Virus record (IMG/VR): IMGVR_UViG_3300044946_000220
Location: 1 to 64,000 of that record
From: a virus
Length of the DNA: 64,000 nucleotides
Strand: one strand, 5' to 3'
Positions 16,693-55,275 of the stretch are shown in pieces (within the stretch, counting starts at the first letter, position 1; every line of letters begins with the position of its first letter). Made by a program: the position numbers and the translations under genes. Under the pieces are notes generated by a model that saw nothing but the letters and a program-made list of their open reading frames with translations, ran no database searches and was not told where the DNA came from.

Positions 16693-17123
16693 GTGGACCC
16701 CAAGCTTCTCCCGCACGTTCTGCAGGCCCTACGCTTCACCAGGGCGCGTCTTGCGAACCCAAGCCATTGGACCAAGGGCTCTTCCGCTAGAGACGCGCTC
16801 GGCTATAAGCTGCCAGCTGGACATCCTGCAGCGGCCAGTCATTGCCTTATGGGCAGCTTGCCGCCGATGCCTGAAGCACTTCAGAACGAATATGGGCTGA
16901 ACTTGCAATTACGCTCAACGGCCAAGGCCCCGTGGAGTTCAACGACGCCGACGAGACGACGCATGCGGACGTCCTCCGCGCCATTGACGAGACGATTAGC
17001 CGGCTGTCTTCACCCCAAGCCAAGACATCGCAGTGTCAAGACTCACCTTCCCCAGAAACTCCCGCGCAGTGCGAACCTTCCCCGCCCTTATTGCAAACAG
17101 GGCCGACGAGCACAGAGTCGTAA
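16693..17123 (+). pseudogene. Phage hypothetical (DUF6197-like) protein split by a frameshift near 16880
   Basis: N-half WTKGSSARD..HCLMG and C-half VEFNDADETTHADVLRAIDETI are in different frames. Confidence 0.6.
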
Positions 17124-18105
17124 GGGCGGCGTGAGCGAAGTCCCTTTGGACTGGAATGTCCCTGAGGCGGTGGAAGTCTAGCTCAACTTCGTCGCACCAG
17201 TCGTCTATCTTGGCGCGGTAGACGTCCAGCTGCTCCTTTAGTTCGGGGAACGCTTGCTCCACCTCAGAGTTCTCACCGGCACGCGCAATCTCAAACAGGC
17301 TGCGCGGGTTGCAGCCGTCTTTCGCCCTATGTAGCAGTACGTAGGCAGCCGCTTTCGATTTTTGGCGATTGAAGTGTCCGTCTACCGTAACGAACCCCTC
17401 CTGTACCAACGGGTTCATCGTCTCTAGCGCCGCCGCGATCTCAGCAAACGAGCTGAGTGCAAACTCGCGTACCGGCGTTGCCGTAGGCAAGTACAGCGAG
17501 GCCACGTCACGCGCTGACAACTCAATCTGCGTGCGCAGATCGCGCCCACCCAGAAGCGTCAGGCTCGCCTTCTCGTGTCGTACAACGATCCTGTTGTAAG
17601 GGCTGCCGAGTTCAAAGAAGAACGAGCACCCAACGCCCTCCACGGGAAGCTCTAGGCCAACTTCATCCACCGTCTTCCAGAACAGCTCCTTGAAAGTAAA
17701 CCCAAAGCCGTTGCATTCTCCCCCGGCGTCCGGTGTCCCGCTGGTTGCAACGCGCCATTGGCCTGCGTACCAGTACACTTGGCAAAGCGAGCCGTCAACC
17801 TTCTCCTGAACGCAGGCCGAGGACCAGTCAATCGTCGCACACTCCGACATTCCTTCGTTGAAGAATCGGTCCAGCGATCGGCACACCACGCGGTAATTGT
17901 CAGCGGTGTCAAGAATGATTCCGCGGCACTGGACCACGAGCGGATGTGCGCGGCACTTGTCGGAGTCAATCTGATCGTACTTGTACAAGTGCAACTGCGG
18001 GAACTCGGCGCTGGCGCGCACCTGGATGCCATATTCCTCGGTGAGCTTGGCTTCCGTGCCGCCCTCGTCGAAGAACTGCTGGAGTAGAATGCGCTCATTG
18101 CCCAT
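16996..18105 (-). CDS. T4 Rnl1-like RNA ligase
   Basis: QCRGIILD, DRFFN, motif I EKVDGS, FFELGSPYNRIV, EGFV, KSKAAAY. Confidence 0.9.
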   Translation of the reverse strand: MGNERILLQQFFDEGGTEAKLTEEYGIQVRASAEFPQLHLYKYDQIDSDKCRAHPLVVQCRGIILDTADNYRVVCRSLDRFFNEGMSECATIDWSSACVQEKVDGSLCQVYWYAGQWRVATSGTPDAGGECNGFGFTFKELFWKTVDEVGLELPVEGVGCSFFFELGSPYNRIVVRHEKASLTLLGGRDLRTQIELSARDVASLYLPTATPVREFALSSFAEIAAALETMNPLVQEGFVTVDGHFNRQKSKAAAYVLLHRAKDGCNPRSLFEIARAGENSEVEQAFPELKEQLDVYRAKIDDWCDEVELDFHRLRDIPVQRDFAHAALTTLCSSALFAIRAGKVRTAREFLGKVSLDTAMSWLGVKTAG

Positions 18106-18171
18106 ACCCTCCCCACCGATCGACGCGCGGTGCGGGCCAATCGAAGGCATGGTTAGAGGATTCAATCAGCC

Positions 18172-18696
18172 ATGACCGAAACTCTCACAATCTCGCAGGC
18201 GCTCCGCGCCATCAAAAAGGCCAAAGGAAAGCTGTCCGAACTCTCAGAGCGCGCCAAGTCGTGCGCCACCTTTGCCGAGGGCGAGTACCCGGCATTCGAG
18301 TGGTCTTCCACCATGGAGGCGATCCGCGACACTCGATCCAACCTGCTGAACTTGCAGGAAGCCGTGGCTCACGCCAACGCAACGACCAAGATTGAAGTGG
18401 ACGGGAAGAAGGTGTCGTTGGCCTACGCGGTGCGATTGCTCGGCGAGATCAAGAGCGAGATTGCTTTTCTGAAGACGGTGCCTGGGCGCACGCAGGAGCG
18501 CACTCAGGAGCTTGCCTGGGGCGTCAACCAGGCTGGTGAGCGCACGCAGATCTCTCGTAGCGTGATCAGCCACCTTCCCGAGGCGCGAAAGGCCGCCGCG
18601 ATTGAGGCTGCGCAGAATCGTTTTGATCTGCTAAACTCGATCGCAGAAAACGCCAACCATACAACCCCCGCTCCCGTCGCATCCGCGCGGAGCTAA
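18172..18696 (+). CDS. DIP1984-like long coiled-coil protein
   Basis: TISQALRAIKKAKGKL, AEGEYPA, AVAHANATT, SLAYAV, terminal ENANHTT match the family pattern. Confidence 0.75.
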   Translation: MTETLTISQALRAIKKAKGKLSELSERAKSCATFAEGEYPAFEWSSTMEAIRDTRSNLLNLQEAVAHANATTKIEVDGKKVSLAYAVRLLGEIKSEIAFLKTVPGRTQERTQELAWGVNQAGERTQISRSVISHLPEARKAAAIEAAQNRFDLLNSIAENANHTTPAPVASARS

Positions 18697-18700
18697 GACT

Positions 18701-18972
18701 GAGGTGACGGGCAAAGGCGGTGCTTGAACGGGCTGGGGAGTGGACTCCCAGAGCAGTAGAAGCGTGTCCAGCCAATTACTCTACGCAAAGAGACCAGCGC
18801 CTAGCGCTGCCAACCGTGACGACACCGAGCCGTACGAAGGGGGAACAAACACCCTCTCTCGATTTATGCGGCAGCCGTCAGCCTTCCTCTCTTCAGCGGT
18901 GAGCGATGAGCACACAGCCCACAGCAACCAGCACTTGTCAATCCCGTCAGGCGGCGCCTAGCCCGTCACCTC
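18701..18972 (+). ncRNA. Putative ~270-nt structured RNA with long closing stem and 7-nt-period AGC repeats
   Basis: gaggtgacgggc (18701-12) is the exact reverse complement of gcccgtcacctc (18961-72); pairing extends to ~30 bp; AGC at 18895, 18902, 18909, 18916, 18923, 18930, also 18796/18803 and 18873/18880. Confidence 0.75.
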
Positions 18973-19517
18973 GCTGTATCCGAAGGACTTTCGCATGCGT
19001 AACGCCATCGTCAGGTTCTGGACCTTTACCGTCCCGCTCGCTTGGATCATCTTCGTGAACGCCCTCCTCGGCGAGGCTCCCGAACCTGAACCGGTGCCCG
19101 CATGAGGCGCGCGTGGCCTCGGCTGCCGGGACTGCTCAAGTACCTGAAACAACCAGAGGAATTCCAACTCACCTTCGTGGACTGGGTGAACGTGGTGGGC
19201 GTTATCTTCCTGCCGATCGCAGCATGGTTGGCCTACGTGGCGAACTCAAGTCCTTAGCGATCTCGCCAGTTTACGCACGTTCGCCTCACAGGGGCGTTTT
19301 TGTTGTTGACCTAGCGAACGGGACGAAGTATCAAGCCCAGTCTTCCAGGACTCGTTCAGTGTGCAGGTCCGCGCGGACGCAGTCCTGGAAGGTTGATGGT
19401 GGCTGGTAACGCAGTGCGGCCGGCGGGGTGGTGATAAGTCAGCGTGTGTGCGTGTCGCGGAAGCGGACACGGCGGTGAGTTGCGCGCGTCGATCGAAACT
19501 GGTGGCAAGGAGCCTAC

Positions 19518-20705
19518 ATGTCAGAGGAGAGTGCTGTACGCGTTGTCCGTCTCGGCGCCATTGAGAAGCACCCCAATGCGGACACGCTGAGCATCACGCA
19601 AGTTGACGGCGGGTATCCGGTCATCTGCAAGACCGGCGACTTCCGCACCGGAGACTTGGCAGTTTACGTGCCAGTGGACAGCTTGGTGCCGACTGAGCGA
19701 CAAGAGTTCTCCTTTCTGCTGAAAGAAGCCAAAGCAGACGGAAAAGCGCGTATCAAGGCTAAGCGCCTGCGAGGTGTCTTCTCTATGGGCATGCTGGTTC
19801 CCATGCCGGCGATTGCTCCGGAGTCCAACGCATATGCTTGGCGCGAAGGTGCGGACGTATCCGTGGCGCTGGGCGTCACGAAGTACATTCCGCGTGGCGA
19901 GGACGATGGGCCCAGCAACGCAACGCGTAAGCCGCGCCGCAGCGAGACGTACGAGTACGAGTTGCGCGCGTGGCTGTTCGCTGGTGCGGCCGTGTGCTTC
20001 CTGTTTGCGATATGGCCGCCGCTTGGCCTGCTGTTCCCGATACCGCTGCTGGTGGCGCGATACCTCATCCGCGCCGAACGCCTTCTGAACAAGAAGCCGA
20101 AGGTACCGTTCTACGACATAGAGGGTCTACGCAAGTACAAGACAGAATTCGTTGACGGGGAACCGGTAGACATCACCGAGAAGCTCCATGGATGCTGCTC
20201 CACATTCGTGCACACCGGCAAGCGTTTCTTCGTCCGCTCGCGTCAAGTGTGGCGAGACAAGGGTGACAGCTCCGATGACTTCTGGAAGATGGCGCGCAAG
20301 CACGATCTAGAGCGCAAGCTTGCCGCCTATCCAGGCTACGCCCTCTTTGGCGAAATCTACGGCTCCGTCCAGGACTTGAAGTACGGCGTTCCTCCAGAGG
20401 AAGGCATTCGCTTCGCTGCCTTCGACATGCTGAACACGAAGACGGGGACATATTGGACTCCGCCGCAGTTGCGCGTGTGGTGCGCCACCAACGACGTTCC
20501 CGTGGTGCCTGTGTTGTATGAGGGCCCGTGGCGCGAGGGCCTGGCGAAGCTGGCCGAAGGAAAAACCACCATGCCCGGCGCCGATCACGTTCGCGAGGGG
20601 ATCGTAATCAAGCCGCAGACGGAGCGTCTTAGCGCACGACTTTGCGGCAGGCTTGTGTTGAAGATCGCAGGCGAAGGCTATCTAACCAGAAAAGAGGCCA
20701 CATGA
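19518..20705 (+). CDS. RNA ligase, DRB0094/Rnl2-like family
   Basis: N-terminal IEKHPNADTL..GDLAVYVPVDS..RLRGVFSMG; motifs EKLHG, FGEIYG, FAAFD, REGIVI, LKI. Confidence 0.9.
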   Translation: MSEESAVRVVRLGAIEKHPNADTLSITQVDGGYPVICKTGDFRTGDLAVYVPVDSLVPTERQEFSFLLKEAKADGKARIKAKRLRGVFSMGMLVPMPAIAPESNAYAWREGADVSVALGVTKYIPRGEDDGPSNATRKPRRSETYEYELRAWLFAGAAVCFLFAIWPPLGLLFPIPLLVARYLIRAERLLNKKPKVPFYDIEGLRKYKTEFVDGEPVDITEKLHGCCSTFVHTGKRFFVRSRQVWRDKGDSSDDFWKMARKHDLERKLAAYPGYALFGEIYGSVQDLKYGVPPEEGIRFAAFDMLNTKTGTYWTPPQLRVWCATNDVPVVPVLYEGPWREGLAKLAEGKTTMPGADHVREGIVIKPQTERLSARLCGRLVLKIAGEGYLTRKEAT

Positions 20706-39152: not shown

Positions 39153-42106
39153 TCAGGGCACGTTTGACGCCTCACAAGCGATGCAAAGCGGCGAGTCAGT
39201 CCAAACCCGAGTACTGCAACGTATGCAGCGGTCGATGGCGCACACCTCCGCCCTGACCGCCAGCTCGTCTTGCGGAAGCGCATAGCCCATGTCTTGGGCG
39301 TTCTGGAGTCGTCCCGTGCCGCGCCCCTGCTCCCATCCCTCGCGGTGTATGCGGTCAAAGGCCCTTGCGAGGGCAGCCAAGGCGTGCGGCCTATCCTCGG
39401 CCACCATGTACACGTACCGATGCAGAAACGCCTTAGCGCGCCGTGTAGCGCCGGGAGAGGGTTGCTTGGCCATACCCGCCCGTTCGATTGAGGCGGGGCG
39501 ATCGAAGGCTGGGGCAGGATGCTAGTTGACGTTCTCTTCGACGGTCCGCCCAGCGCCGAGGGCCCGCGGTTCGTCGAGGTCGAGTCGCCGCCAGGCCGCT
39601 CCATCCGAGCTGGCCAATGGGTCGACAGGGGCGGAGGGTACTGGGCGCTACGGCGGACGTGGCAGACTGTAAGCACGCCGCGTACAACGTAGCGGACCTT
39701 CCGCCCACGTGCGCGCAATGTGGTGCGACATTGTACGCGACGGTAGTCAAAACCTAGGCAGGCAAGGCGCGAGCCGACAACCGCGGGCGAGACTCAGGGA
39801 CGGGAATGCCGATTCCGGCGCCGTGGCGGGGTCGCCAGGCGACTTTCGAGCTCCGGACGTACTCGCGGTCGTTTTCGGAAAACGGACGCGTCCTAGGGCC
39901 TACTGGTACGGCAGAGCTTGTCCAGCCCTCAAAGTAGCACCATGTAAACGGGTGTGCGTTCTCGTAGGCTGCCTTCCAAACGGCGGTCAACGTACTGTAG
40001 TCGGCCGTCCCTGTAGCTCGCCGAAACTGCACCTCGCCTTCCGCTAGGTCAAGCCGTGCGCACGCGTCTAGCCCATCGTCTATGGCTTCGGCTAGACACT
40101 CGTCGCACGTGCCATCCGCTACGATAGCCTCGCTACACCGGTCGCAACGGTGCGCGCGCGCTACCATGCCGCACCGTCAAGATACCGCCGCCATCGTGCA
40201 CAATCGCCCTGCAATGCATCCGCCGACGGACAGCTACACTTGGCCAGGTGAGGCAACACGCTATCCGCACGGGACGGCAGAGGCCTGCCATTGGCCAACC
40301 TAAACGCATCGGCGCCGTGACGAACGATTCGCACGACGCTTACCGCCCGACCGTGTCCCACACCGCCGCGCCGCATGGCCGTAGCCTCGTCATCGGCAAG
40401 TGTGTTGCAGATAAAGCCGCCAGACTCCACGTCAAACACGGCGTAAGCGCCTACCATGACGGGCCCGAGTAGTGGCGCGTCCCGACCGGAAACCCGCCAG
40501 GGTACGTGCTGCTGAAGTGGCACATGTTCGCGCTCAGCATTGGGTGCAGATCGTTGTCCAGCAACCGCATCGCATACTCCCGCGAGAGAACACCAGCGCT
40601 TACCAGCTGGCCTAGCTGCTCTAGCTTATGCGTCGGTTCGGGCGCATGTTCCGTCCCGCAGTAGCTGCACCGTTCCAGGCTGGCCACCGTCCCACTAGGC
40701 GCATGGCCACGGGGAGCGCCGCACCATCGGCAGGTGACGCGATCGTGCTGCCTCACCAGCAGGGCCCCGGCCGATGCTCACGACGGCAATACTCGCAAAA
40801 ACGCTCCGGCTTCTCTAGGGCCCACATTATCAGCGGGATGGACCACCATAGCGGCCAAGTCACCAAAAACCCTAGTACGGCTAGTTGCACGTACCACGGT
40901 CCAGCAGTCAGCGGTTTGCTCATTCCGGTTCGCCTCCCCTGGCATTGTCTAGGGCCGACATGACGGCGCCCCAATCGTACAGGCCGCCATACTGAAGGCA
41001 GCGCCTTAGCGCCCTGTACAGCTCGGGCGCCGCTGCAGCCAGCGTGATTGCCGCAGGCGCGCCGCACAGGTCGTGATTGCCTTCCGACGTCGGCTCGCCA
41101 TACAGCACCAGTTGGCCGGCCTCGTTCTCTACACGCACCGAGCCGTAGTCGTCCCGCGCGATCCACGTCTCCTCCCACGGCCTGCGCCCGCTCACGACCT
41201 ACCCCGACACACCGCCACGTCATGGCACGACCCATTAGGCAGGCCTGGCCAGCCGGTGCCAGACTGCGGCATGCGGACAGAAAGGTCCCCATTCCCGAGC
41301 CAGAGCGTCAACCCGCAGGCCTCTAGCTCTGCTTCCAGCGCATCGTAGCGCGGCCGACACATGGTAACCTCATGAATCGTAAGCCCTTCGTCACGAAGCC
41401 TGCACACGGTTGACGCCAGCCGTTCGCGCTCGCTCACCATCGCATCACCGGCCCGCTAAGGTGGCTTCCGTGTCCTCCAAACGTCACCTGAACCGGCGAG
41501 GTATTGGCCGACGGATCGTGTGCCGCGTCAAGCTTGGCCTGCTCTGACTTCCCGCCCATGCTGGGATCAATCTCGTGCAGGAACACCATGGCCAGGTGGC
41601 GCTGCAGGCACTCCACCTGCTCGCGCGTCATGCCCTTGGCATTGCCCTCGTTACCGGCCTGAAACAGCTCTAGGTAGCCCTGTAGCCACCAGCAAAAGCC
41701 TTGGGAGGTCACCGCCCCCACCGCGGCTTGCTGTCCGTCATGGCCGCAAGCAGCGCCACGCCGATGAGCAGACCGACGATGCCCAGTCCAATCCAGGCAG
41801 GCGCTAGGACCCAAACCCAAGACCAATCAATGACATGGCCAAGCTTTAGGCCGACGAATAGGAGCAGCAGACCGCTGCTCAGGCCGATACCGCCAGAGCC
41901 GGACGACGAGCTAGAGTCGCTCATGGCCGCTCCATGCGCGCTCGACAGTATGCGTAGATGTCCTCTTCCGCCTCAACAGACCGCATAAGCTTGTCGCCAA
42001 GTGCGCTATCATGCTTGCCAATGTCGGCCGCCCATTCGGCCCGCTCTTTCGGGCAGTAGCCCAGCCCCATGCTTTTCACGAACCCTCGAAACTCTTCTTT
42101 CGTCAT
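39153..42106 (-). other. Second leftward cluster of small hypothetical ORFs, including membrane protein 41709-41924
   Basis: Coupled short ORFs; 41709-41924 has LKLGHVIDWSWVWVLAPAWI. Confidence 0.55.
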
Positions 42107-50402: not shown

Positions 50403-50777
50403 ATGAGCAACGTAAACAAGCGAAAACGAGCAACACTCCCTGTGCTGACGGCGAAGCAAGCGGAGGAGCTGCTGCTGTACTTTGACGGCAACCAGCCTTC
50501 GGAGCCAGGGGCCGAGTCAACGCACGGCGCTGTGGTGAAGTGGCTAGCGCGCGGGCAGTTGGAGGCTCCGGACATGCTGTCTTCGTCAGAAGACGAGATG
50601 CTTGAGTACCTGGATGCCAAGCGAGAGTGGGACATGGTGGAGGCGAAGGTAGAGAAATGCTCAGACGCAACCCTAGGCGTTCTTGCAGCGTGGTTCGCGG
50701 CAAAAGAGGTGGATCGTCACCGAGTCGCAGACGACGAGGTCTTGGCGGCGGCGTGCAAGGAGTACGCAGCAACATGA
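50403..50777 (+). CDS. Hypothetical protein
   Basis: 124-aa ORF coupled to the kinase. Confidence 0.55.
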   Translation: MSNVNKRKRATLPVLTAKQAEELLLYFDGNQPSEPGAESTHGAVVKWLARGQLEAPDMLSSSEDEMLEYLDAKREWDMVEAKVEKCSDATLGVLAAWFAAKEVDRHRVADDEVLAAACKEYAAT

Positions 50778-51229
50778 ACGTCATCGTCTTGAGTGGGTGC
50801 AGCGGGAGTGGGAAGTCCACATACGCCAAGAAGCTGCTGGAAGACGCCAACGGCCGCGCCACGTGCGTTAGTGCAGACCACTATTTTGAGCGTGGCGGGT
50901 ACTATGATTTCAAGTCCGATGAGTTGCCACAGGCCCACGGCTACTGCTTCCGCCGGTTCATCAACGCCCTTCGCGACGGCAACGCCGGTGTGCTGGACAC
51001 GATCATCATTGACAACACAAACCAGTCTGCGGCGAACATTTCGCCGTACTTCCTCGGCGCGCAAGCCTTCGGCTGGACGTCGGAGTTGGTGACGGTGCTG
51101 TGCGACGTTGAGGTGGCCGCCGCGCGCAACAAGCACGGGGTTCCGCCGGAGAAGGTGAGACAGCAGGCCGCGCGAATTGCAAAGCGGCAGGTCCCGAAGA
51201 CGTGGAAGCAAAGGACGGTGGAACTGTGA
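50774..51229 (+). CDS. P-loop polynucleotide-kinase-like protein
   Basis: GCSGSGKST, SADHYF, AHGYC, IIDNTN, RNKHGVP. Confidence 0.9.
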   Translation: MNVIVLSGCSGSGKSTYAKKLLEDANGRATCVSADHYFERGGYYDFKSDELPQAHGYCFRRFINALRDGNAGVLDTIIIDNTNQSAANISPYFLGAQAFGWTSELVTVLCDVEVAAARNKHGVPPEKVRQQAARIAKRQVPKTWKQRTVEL

Positions 51230-55202: not shown

Positions 55203-55275
55203 TGCGAGGTAGCACAATTGGCAGTGCTTTCGTCTGTTACACGAAATTATACAGGTCCGAATCCTGTCTTCGCAG
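55203..55275 (+). tRNA. tRNA-Asn(GTT)
   Basis: Acceptor tgcgagg/cttcgca, D arm gcac/gtgc, anticodon arm ttcgt-ctGTTac-acgaa, T arm acagg-tccgaat-cctgt, discriminator G; no encoded CCA. Confidence 0.85.

What the first reader, a model, noticed from the sequence alone, without database searches (positions are those of the whole stretch)
18172..18972. DIP1984-like coiled-coil protein followed by a ~270-nt closed RNA with 7-nt AGC repeats, nested between two RNA ligases
Seen: 4 nt after the stop, gaggtgacgggc pairs perfectly with gcccgtcacctc 260 nt away. Pairing continues (aggcggtgcttgaacggg with cccgtcaggcggcgcct) to about 30 bp. Inside are a small hairpin (ctggggag-tgga-ctcccag) and AGC triplets at an exact 7-nt period: six in a row (18895-18932) plus two pairs (18796/18803 and 18873/18880). 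A period of 7 cannot come from codon structure. Rnl1 is divergently adjacent and a DRB0094-type ligase follows. Inference: a protein-RNA pair in which the coiled-coil oligomer binds one heptamer per subunit (RNP scaffold, sponge or antitoxin-like RNA), possibly linked to RNA repair. The juxtaposed ends would also suit ligase-mediated circularisation.
Basis: partly seen in the sequence, partly recalled or inferred. Interest (0 to 1): 0.85.

Follow-up and report, generated by a model that had tools for sequence, protein, structure and literature searches.

The report
Heptad-repeat RNA partnered with DIP1984-fold gene
Right behind a small gene of unknown function, this 102-kb soil phage encodes a real, conserved, folded RNA of about 270 bases. 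It carries a row of AGC units spaced exactly 7 bases apart, the gene-plus-RNA pair recurs in every relative examined, and it matches no catalogued RNA family, so it is probably an undescribed protein-RNA particle.

Summary
A closing stem of about 27 bp (18701-18731 with 18944-18972) encloses about 270 nt. Six AGC units sit at an exact 7-nt period (18895-18936). This is the only such run in the 64-kb window and was never reached in 5000 shuffles.

The element is not chance. In 32 of 36 non-redundant homologous loci, a run of at least 4 AG heptads lies within 400 nt 3' of the gene, against 5 of 723 control windows. The other four loci carry displaced or interrupted tracts. The closing stem recurs with different sequences and compensatory changes.

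The protein model (pLDDT 97) matches only 3KDQ, the DIP1984/DUF6847 fold, whose function is unknown. A self-association model passes its controls. Rfam gives no match and I found no literature. A soil metatranscriptome library holds a 154-nt contig lying inside the RNA.

My best reading, partly inferred, is that the protein oligomer reads the single-stranded AGCNNUN heptads, as HutP and TRAP read their triplets, and forms a particle of unknown function.

The link to RNA repair is weak. This window has two ligases, one relative has RtcB and one has Ro60. Circularisation has no support.

This scan has already noted the same module on at least eight other genomes.

The parts
18172..18696 (+). Gene for a 174-aa DIP1984/DUF6847-fold protein, the partner of the RNA
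   Evidence: PF20935 scores 27.6 bits against a cut-off of 27. NF038048 scores 30.1 bits, below its cut-off of 70. The model has pLDDT 97.2. The only fold match is 3KDQ: Foldseek E 4.5e-4 with TM 0.72/0.82, and VIA Z 13.7 over 150 residues. There are 275 representative homologues.
18700..18973 (+). Heptad-repeat non-coding RNA (whole element, from the closing stem's 5' arm to its 3' arm)
   Evidence: Fold. Homologous elements lie behind the gene in all related loci. No Rfam match. G-U pairs in the stem fix the strand as +.
18701..18731 (+). 5' side of the composite closing stem (12 + 5 + 7 + 3 bp)
   Evidence: The equivalent stems in relatives differ in sequence but keep pairing.
18944..18972 (+). 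3' side of the composite closing stem
18733..18751 (+). Small hairpin ctggggag-tgg-actcccag; this part of the RNA is variable in relatives
18816..18828 (+). Conserved GAYGACACCGA-type motif upstream of the heptads
   Evidence: Aligned across loci. It is part of the core HMM consensus.
18873..18886 (+). First heptad tract (AGCCGUC AGCCUUC), homologous to AGCGGUC AGCGUUC AGAC in relatives
18895..18936 (+). Main heptad tract: six AGCNNNN units at an exact 7-nt period
   Evidence: Consensus over 31 loci is A G C(81%) N N U(73%) N, with 4-7 units.
18935..18948 (+). Conserved UUGUCRNCCCGUC-type 3' motif leading into the closing stem
18995..19257 (+). Two overlapping small ORFs (36 and 51 aa, hydrophobic). 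They are not conserved next to the module elsewhere
   Evidence: No Pfam match. Downstream genes differ between loci.
19282..19306 (+). Terminator-like hairpin plus T run; probable end of the transcription unit
16996..18165 (-). T4 Rnl1-like RNA ligase, divergent neighbour (context only)
   Evidence: PF09511 E 1.9e-10. PDB 2C5U/5TT6 E about 1e-7.
19518..20705 (+). Rnl5-type RNA ligase with an N-terminal OB domain and a nucleotidyltransferase domain (context only)
   Evidence: PF21189 plus PF09414. The best solved relative is Naegleria RNA ligase 5COT, E 5e-13.

Best explanation
The 274 nt behind the gene (18700-18973, + strand) are a structured non-coding RNA, transcribed together with the 174-aa DIP1984-fold protein gene. 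A long closing stem brings its two ends together. This presents a largely unpaired core: a conserved GAYGACACCGA motif, two AGC heptads, a spacer, six AGCNNUN heptads and a UUGUCR motif.

Shown: the RNA is conserved and its stem covaries. It always sits directly 3' of this gene family on the same strand.

Inferred: the protein self-associates, and its copies bind the heptads as single-stranded words about one unit apart. HutP and TRAP read NAG triplets in the same way. The result would be a stable protein-RNA particle. The conserved polar residues at one tip of the helical bundle (T6, Q9, R12, N69, N155, E159, N162, H163) are the likely base-reading site.

What the particle does is not known. 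My leading guess is a role in RNA or tRNA maintenance, or in countering host nucleases during infection, because the module sits between two RNA ligases here, next to RtcB in one relative and next to Ro60 in another.
For: 1. Periodicity beyond chance: it is the only such run in the window, and 0 of 5000 shuffles reach 5 units.
2. Conservation with the gene: at least 4 AG heptads lie within 400 nt 3' of the gene in 32 of 36 non-redundant loci, against 5 of 723 control windows. The other four loci have displaced or interrupted tracts.
3. Core profile: it hits once in the whole 102-kb genome, at 18871-18947. It also hits loci that were not used to build it, always 3' of the gene on its strand.
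4. Closing stem: 22 of 41 loci beat all 205 shuffles. A locus's own 3' arm is the best partner in 11 of 29 (Mann-Whitney p 1.9e-7). Compensatory double changes occur at 8 of 9 and 10 of 10 stem pairs in two subgroups.
5. Not coding: only 4 of 30 RNAs have any frame open across them.
6. Heptads stay in register with no conserved pairing partner. The repeated word differs in more distant protein lineages: UCAAGAC, AGG, UUAG in other PF20935 loci and AAAG behind T5.085.
7. Self-association model with four copies: score 0.57, best of 3 controls 0.00. That mark was reached by 20 of 30 proteins solved as pairs of one chain and by 1 of 23 solved as single chains. The runs share at least 71% of contacts and the partner pLDDT is at least 83. 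Because 3KDQ was solved with several chains, this pass may come from memory of that entry.
8. A soil metatranscriptome library holds a 154-nt contig at 18779-18932 with one differing letter. This is a weak hint only, because DNA can be present in such libraries.
Against: - No protein-RNA contact was tested, and the tools here cannot model RNA.
- The predicted interface is symmetric and dimer-like. That does not by itself give one subunit per heptad.
- In this phage the RNA lies inside an operon, with two ORFs and the terminator downstream, so it would need processing. No ends were observed.
- The co-variation of repeat word with protein lineage rests on few lineages.
- RNA-repair neighbours occur in only about 3 of 36 loci. 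The commonest conserved neighbour is a TrmB-like regulator, found in 8 loci.
Confidence: 0.6

Rival explanations
1. The RNA is a decoy or sponge for a host factor, such as an RNA-binding protein or a nuclease that recognises AG-containing words. The neighbouring protein only stabilises or processes it.
For: The RNA has repeated short single-stranded words inside a closed, protected fold, as in the CsrB/RsmZ sponges (established knowledge). It occurs in phages beside RNA ligases, RtcB or Ro60.
Against: The module also occurs in small cellular genomes, where a host decoy makes less sense.
Confidence: 0.12
2. The element acts in cis as a 3' untranslated region. It would stabilise or terminate the mRNA of the DIP1984-like gene, or let the protein regulate its own message.
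For: It starts 3-40 nt after the stop codon with no promoter-like site. In 13 of 30 loci the closing stem is followed by a T-rich run, like a terminator.
Against: About 270 nt with a conserved core, conserved motifs and 8-10 phased repeats is far more than a terminator or stabiliser needs. In this window no T run follows the stem, and transcription probably continues to 19306.
Confidence: 0.12
3. The RNA is a substrate of the flanking ligases, so that its paired ends are joined into a circle. Alternatively it is a cofactor of an RNA-repair pathway.
For: The 5' and 3' ends are brought together by the stem. An Rnl1-like and an Rnl5-like ligase flank it. RtcB lies two genes upstream in L002 and Ro60 lies downstream in L021.
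Against: Most loci (about 33 of 36) have no ligase within 3 kb. The RNA-library contig shows no back-joined form. The divergent arrangement at 18.17 kb coincides with a general strand switch of the genome.
Confidence: 0.06
4. It is a type III toxin-antitoxin-like pair, in which the repeated RNA neutralises a toxic protein.
For: A repeat-bearing RNA is encoded next to a small protein gene, on mobile elements.
Against: The units are 7 nt long, not about 36 nt. The RNA lies after the gene, not before it. The fold is DIP1984-like, not that of a ToxN/AbiQ-type endoribonuclease. There is no PADLOC family match.
Confidence: 0.04
5. It is a DNA-level feature (iterons or an origin) at the point where the two gene modules diverge.
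For: It lies near the strand switch and the change of GC-skew sign at about 18 kb.
Against: The stem keeps pairing through G-U pairs, which work only on the + strand RNA. The element travels with the gene in unrelated genomic contexts.
Confidence: 0.02

Closest known systems
DIP1984 family / Pfam DUF6847 (PF20935, NCBIfam NF038048; crystal structure 3KDQ of Corynebacterium diphtheriae; often labelled 'septicolysin')
   Same: Same fold and size. It is the only real structural match (Z 13.7 over 150 residues; TM 0.72/0.82). The Pfam hit just clears the cut-off. The Atlas neighbours are DIP1984 clusters.
   Different: The relationship is distant: 14-15% identity to 3KDQ, and below the NCBIfam cut-off. 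The family has no known function, and no partner RNA has been described for it in the literature I could search.
HutP with the hut leader RNA, and TRAP with the trp leader (Bacillus subtilis)
   Same: By established knowledge, an oligomeric protein reads NAG triplets at fixed spacing on single-stranded RNA. HutP sites are UAG with 4-nt spacers, which is a 7-nt period. Here AG is invariant at a 7-nt period.
   Different: There is no sequence similarity, and HutP and TRAP do not appear among the fold matches. Those RNAs are 5' leaders that control termination of downstream genes. This RNA is a closed 270-nt molecule 3' of the protein's own gene.
Ro60 (Rsr) with Y RNA, in the rsr-yrlBA-rtcBA RNA-repair operon
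   Same: A non-coding RNA whose 5' and 3' ends form a long stem, encoded beside RNA-repair genes. Ro60 itself lies next to the module in L021 and RtcB in L002.
   Different: There is no Y RNA or YrlA match in Rfam. The window has no Ro60. Y RNAs have no heptad tracts.
RAGATH-27 RNA motif (Rfam RF03100)
   Same: Earlier notes of this scan report that it covers the 5' part of some members of this RNA class.
   Different: There is no match here even at E up to 10, and none in phage T5.
Type III toxin-antitoxin systems (ToxIN) and CsrB/RsmZ sponge RNAs
   Same: An RNA made of repeated protein-binding units that works with a small protein.
   Different: Unit length, gene order, protein fold and repeat word all differ.

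Membership tests
DIP1984 / DUF6847 protein family | Pfam PF20935 match at or above the gathering score | tested here: met
   27.6 bits against a cut-off of 27, E 3.3e-6, covering residues 17-111 only. This is marginal.
DIP1984 / DUF6847 protein family | NCBIfam NF038048 match at or above its cut-off | tested here: not met
   30.1 bits against a cut-off of 70. This is a distant subfamily.
DIP1984 / DUF6847 protein family | Fold of the solved member 3KDQ | tested here: met
   Model pLDDT 97.2. Foldseek E 4.5e-4 with TM 0.72/0.82. VIA Z 13.7, rmsd 3.4 over 150 residues, well above the next rows at Z 8.8.
Heptad-repeat RNA behind DUF6847 genes (undescribed class, noted earlier by this scan) | Lies directly 3' of the gene on the same strand | tested here: met
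   The RNA starts 4 nt after the stop codon. The same arrangement holds in all related loci.
Heptad-repeat RNA behind DUF6847 genes (undescribed class, noted earlier by this scan) | Closing stem formed by the two ends, kept through compensatory changes | tested here: met
Heptad-repeat RNA behind DUF6847 genes (undescribed class, noted earlier by this scan) | Row of at least 4 units with invariant AG at a 7-nt period | tested here: met
   Six units here. 32 of 36 loci meet this, against 5 of 723 control windows.
RAGATH-27 (RF03100) | Covariance-model match | tested here: not met
   No match at E up to 10 in 18600-19550 and none at gathering score in the window.
HutP / TRAP type RNA-binding attenuation proteins | Protein homology or shared fold | tested here: inconclusive
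   No Pfam match to HutP or TRAP, and neither is among the listed fold matches. Absence from those lists does not exclude a relationship.
HutP / TRAP type RNA-binding attenuation proteins | Target RNA is a 5' leader that controls a downstream terminator | tested here: not met
   The RNA lies 3' of the protein's own gene, and the downstream genes are not conserved.
Y RNA / Ro60 particle | Rfam Y RNA or YrlA match, and a Ro60 gene alongside | tested here: not met
   No Rfam match. No TROVE-domain gene among the ORFs scanned beside the module in this window. It is present only in L021.
Type III toxin-antitoxin | Tandem repeats of about 34-40 nt upstream of a ToxN/AbiQ-fold endoribonuclease gene | tested here: not met
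   The units are 7 nt and lie downstream of the gene. The fold is 3KDQ-like. No PADLOC match.
Rnl5 (DraRnl/NgrRnl) RNA ligases: the neighbour at 19518-20705 | N-terminal OB module followed by a nucleotidyltransferase domain | tested here: met
   PF21189 covers residues 9-96 and PF09414 covers 216-382. The best solved relative is NgrRnl 5COT, E 5e-13. I did not compare it directly with DRB0094.
Rnl1 (T4 RNA ligase 1): the neighbour at 16996-18165 | PF09511 domain and similarity to T4 Rnl1 | tested here: met
   PF09511 E 1.9e-10. 2C5U and 5TT6, E 8e-8 to 5e-7.

The most novel reading that the evidence does not exclude
A widespread, undescribed ribonucleoprotein of large phages and small-genome bacteria. 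In it, copies of a DIP1984-fold protein line up on an AG-heptad RNA. In this phage the particle would work with the two flanking RNA ligases, either to repair or shield tRNA or other RNA, or to bait host nucleases during infection.
Probability: 0.2. Interest if true: 0.9.

Novelty: categorically new. Interest (0 to 1): 0.8.

Why it matters
DUF6847/DIP1984 is a widespread family. It has a crystal structure dating from 2009 and no known function, and many of its genes carry the misleading label 'septicolysin'. Showing that its members always travel with a structured RNA carrying phased AG heptads gives the family its first testable role, as an RNA-binding partner. It also adds a large RNA class that is absent from Rfam. 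The module occurs in large phages, probably including the model phage T5, so genetics and biochemistry are within reach. If it is tied to RNA repair or to counter-defence, it would be a new player in phage-host conflict over RNA.

Tried and rejected
- Rfam: no match at gathering score over the window, at E up to 10 over 18600-19550, or at E up to 0.1 over four related loci.
- GenBank phages: blastn with the locus and tblastn with the protein both gave no match.
- IMG/VR scan with the single protein: no confirmed relative. Small alignments found only three loci.
- RNAalifold on a global MAFFT alignment of 30 RNAs gave 0 pairs. This is an alignment artefact caused by variable inserts. Subgroup alignments recover the stem.
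- Phage T5: PF20935 and RF03100 give no match. The family profile hits T5.085 only weakly (E 1.4e-3; hhalign probability 55%), and the core HMM does not detect the T5 RNA. I call T5 a probable distant member only because of the shared layout seen.
- A short helix between the GAYGAC motif and the region after the heptads, or a pseudoknot with late heptads, is suggested in some loci. I could not establish it.
- PADLOC: no meaningful match.
- PDB sequence search with the family profile: nothing.
- Literature: nothing on DUF6847/DIP1984 function, RAGATH-27, T5.085 or heptad-repeat phage RNAs.
- Read laying: the RNA-library run X9 covers none of the flanking coding sequence in the 1701-nt stretch, and no back-joined form was seen. 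Contigs cannot show absence, ends or strand, so this supports neither processing nor a lack of circles.
- Polynucleotide kinase/phosphatase next to the ligases: PNK3P was not found, and an AAA_33 kinase-like ORF lies 32 kb away.

Full report
**Setting.** The window is the first 64 kb of a 102-kb virus record with direct terminal repeats. Pieces at 99% identity or more occur in several soil metagenomes. Genes left of about 18.17 kb run on the minus strand and genes right of it on the plus strand, and the GC skew changes sign there.

**Observation.**
- The stop codon is at 18694-18696. The 12-nt arms are at 18701-18712 and 18961-18972.
- Pairing continues to about 27 bp.
- The 284-nt stretch folds at -115.7 kcal/mol, z = -3.45.
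- Six AGC units stand at an exact 7-nt period at 18895-18930. This is the only run of 5 or more of any trinucleotide at periods 5, 7, 8, 10 or 11 on either strand of the window, and 5000 dinucleotide shuffles never exceed 4.
- The 18873/18880 pair is a conserved first tract. The 18796/18803 pair sits in a palindromic hairpin and is probably coincidence.

**The protein.** ORF 18172-18696 encodes 174 aa.
- It just passes Pfam DUF6847 (27.6 bits against 27) and lies below the NCBIfam DIP1984 cut-off.
- A full-library search gives 275 representative homologues, nearly all 163-190 aa long.
- With 90 of them as an alignment, AlphaFold gives a model of pLDDT 97.2, with four long helices and small sheets.
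- The only convincing structural match is 3KDQ, the C. diphtheriae protein of unknown function: Foldseek E 4.5e-4, TM 0.72/0.82; VIA Z 13.7 over 150 residues, with the next rows at Z 8.8 or less.
- Atlas neighbours are DIP1984 clusters.
- A four-copy model supports self-association: score 0.57, best of 3 controls 0.00. That mark was reached by 20 of 30 proteins solved as pairs of one chain and by 1 of 23 solved as single chains. The runs share at least 71% of contacts, and the partner pLDDT is at least 83. The job differs from the calibration in using four copies and my own alignment. Because 3KDQ was solved with several chains, the pass may be from memory.
- The interface is symmetric (helices 44-71 and 83-102, and loops 31-38 and 129-135).
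- The most conserved polar residues (T6, Q9, R12, N69, N155, E159, N162, H163) lie outside it. From the helix topology I infer that they sit at the opposite tip.

**The RNA is conserved with the gene.** I collected 3 viral, 39 metagenomic and 2 genome loci that encode relatives of 26-55% identity.
- A row of AG(C) units at a 7-nt period lies 120-260 nt after the stop in nearly all of them.
- Counted formally, 32 of 36 non-redundant loci have at least 4 consecutive units within 400 nt, against 5 of 723 control windows from the same loci. The four exceptions have a displaced tract (L018, at +407) or interrupted tracts, or use UAG.
- MAFFT aligns the tracts in register across 30 RNAs, with the A and G columns invariant.
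- The unit consensus is A G C(81%) N N U(73%) N, with 4-7 units in the main tract and 2-3 in the first.
- A 114-position sequence profile of the core hits the 102-kb genome once, at 18871-18947. The profile spans the GAYGACACCGA motif, tract 1, tract 2 and UUGUCRNCCCG. It also hits loci that were not in its training set, always 3' of the gene on its strand.

**The closing stem is real.**
- A perfect stem of 10-24 bp joins the first about 40 nt after the stop to a site 170-300 nt downstream in most loci, with quite different sequences.
- 22 of 41 loci beat all 205 shuffles.
- With windows chosen without regard to pairing, a locus's own 3' arm is the best partner of its 5' arm in 11 of 29 cases (Mann-Whitney p 1.9e-7).
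- In subgroup alignments, 8 of 9 and 10 of 10 stem pairs show compensatory double changes with almost no broken pairs. Frequent G-U pairs fix the strand as that of the gene.
- Only 4 of 30 RNAs have any frame open across them.
- The RNA starts 3-40 nt after the stop codon. In 13 of 30 loci a T-rich run follows the stem.
- In this window there is none. Two small hydrophobic ORFs follow, then a terminator-like site at 19282-19306, so the RNA would have to be cut out of a longer transcript.

**Expression.** A soil metatranscriptome library from another study holds a 154-nt contig at 18779-18932 with one differing letter. This shows presence in an RNA library, not proven transcription.

**Wider family.** Five further PF20935-positive loci from small (about 1 Mb) genomes also carry phased units behind the gene, with other words: UCAAGAC, AGG, UUAG, AAGC.

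In phage T5 the family profile weakly hits T5.085. The unannotated 360 nt behind that gene show the same layout, with a GAUAUUACCGACAC motif, A-rich AAAG heptads and UUCAAACCC. I call this a probable distant member.

That the repeated word differs between distant protein lineages, while AG and the 7-nt spacing persist, is the best indirect argument that the co-encoded protein reads the units. It rests on few lineages.

**Context and the ligase idea.**
- The left neighbour is T4 Rnl1-like.
- The right one, 540 nt beyond the RNA, is an OB-plus-nucleotidyltransferase ligase whose closest solved relative is Naegleria RNA ligase. By established knowledge that enzyme is in the same Rnl5 family as Deinococcus DRB0094.
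- Among 135 neighbour proteins of the other loci, I found one RtcB (L002), one Ro60/TROVE (L021), and the C-terminal part of a CCA-adding-type enzyme (L028). The only recurrent neighbour is a TrmB-like regulator, in 8 cellular-type loci.
- A link with RNA repair or quality control is therefore suggestive, but it is not a property of the module. I found nothing that supports circularisation.

**Comparison with what is known.**
- No Rfam family matches, including RAGATH-27, which earlier notes of this scan linked to some members.
- No paper in the library deals with the function of this protein family or with such an RNA.
- Functionally, the nearest analogues are HutP and TRAP, which read NAG triplets at fixed spacing. 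Membership fails on gene order and RNA role, and no homology is seen.
- Y RNA with Ro60 is the nearest analogue for a closed-stem RNA beside repair genes.

**Earlier notes of this scan.** The same gene-plus-RNA module was noted on at least eight other genomes. Those notes supplied the T5 and RAGATH-27 leads, which I tested here. My evidence on this window and on 40-odd loci is independent of them.

**Verdict.** This is a genuine, conserved, structured RNA bound by inheritance to a DIP1984-fold gene. It is most likely a protein-RNA particle in which the heptads are the protein's binding units. Its function is unknown, the tie to RNA repair is possible but weak, and it is not described in the catalogues or literature I could search.

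Noticed in passing
L021:845-1501 and L021:1502-3202: In one metagenome relative, a Ro60/TROVE gene with its vWA domain lies 650 nt downstream of the heptad RNA. The unannotated gap between them contains several hairpins and might hold Y-like RNAs. Rfam finds nothing there.
   Followed up: partly
L055:1643-2005 (phage T5, AY543070 43142-43504, minus strand): The unannotated 360-nt gap after T5.085 has a GAUAUUACCGACAC motif, about nine A-rich units at a 7-nt period, and UUCAAACCC. T5.085 is a weak profile match to the family. The T5 record also annotates a separate 'RNAX stable RNA with unknown functions' at 40848-41566.
   Followed up: partly
window 19338-19395: An 11-bp perfect inverted repeat (cttccaggact / agtcctggaag) encloses a GC-rich palindrome. 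It lies between the terminator-like site and the start of the second ligase gene.
   Followed up: no
window 18150-18172: The divergent Rnl1-like gene and the DIP1984-like gene start only about 6-21 nt apart. This is at the point where gene orientation and GC skew switch, and no sigma-70-like promoter was found in 17900-19700.
   Followed up: partly
window 50627-51229: An AAA_33 kinase-like ORF (E 8.9e-15) could be a polynucleotide kinase. It is 32 kb from the ligases, and no PNK3P phosphatase domain was found in the genome.
   Followed up: partly
window 55203-55275: A single tRNA gene (Rfam tRNA, 59.4 bits).
   Followed up: no
L018:3507-4000: In this relative, the 19-nt word resembling the stem's 5' arm (GTGGGTGACGGCGCGCTGG) occurs twice as a direct repeat about 190 nt apart. 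The heptad tract starts only 407 nt after the stop, so the RNA seems longer or duplicated at its 5' side.
   Followed up: no
L018, L022, L024, L028, L031, L038, L042, L048 (about 0.7-1.4 kb upstream of the gene): A TrmB-like helix-turn-helix protein of about 250 aa is a conserved upstream neighbour in eight cellular-type loci. It is separated from the DIP1984-like gene by a gap with no long ORF.
   Followed up: partly
G001, G002 and their phylum/class samples: The cellular genomes that carry this subfamily, and all sampled relatives of their groups, are only about 0.7-1.4 Mb. The module was found in 3 of 301 and 6 of 401 sampled genomes.
   Followed up: partly
L019:3620-3730, L020:3620-3730: The word GAUCCC upstream of tract 1 can pair either with an adjacent GGGAUC (a local hairpin) or with a GGGAUC inside the fifth heptad of the main tract. 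This may be a pseudoknot or alternative fold.
   Followed up: no
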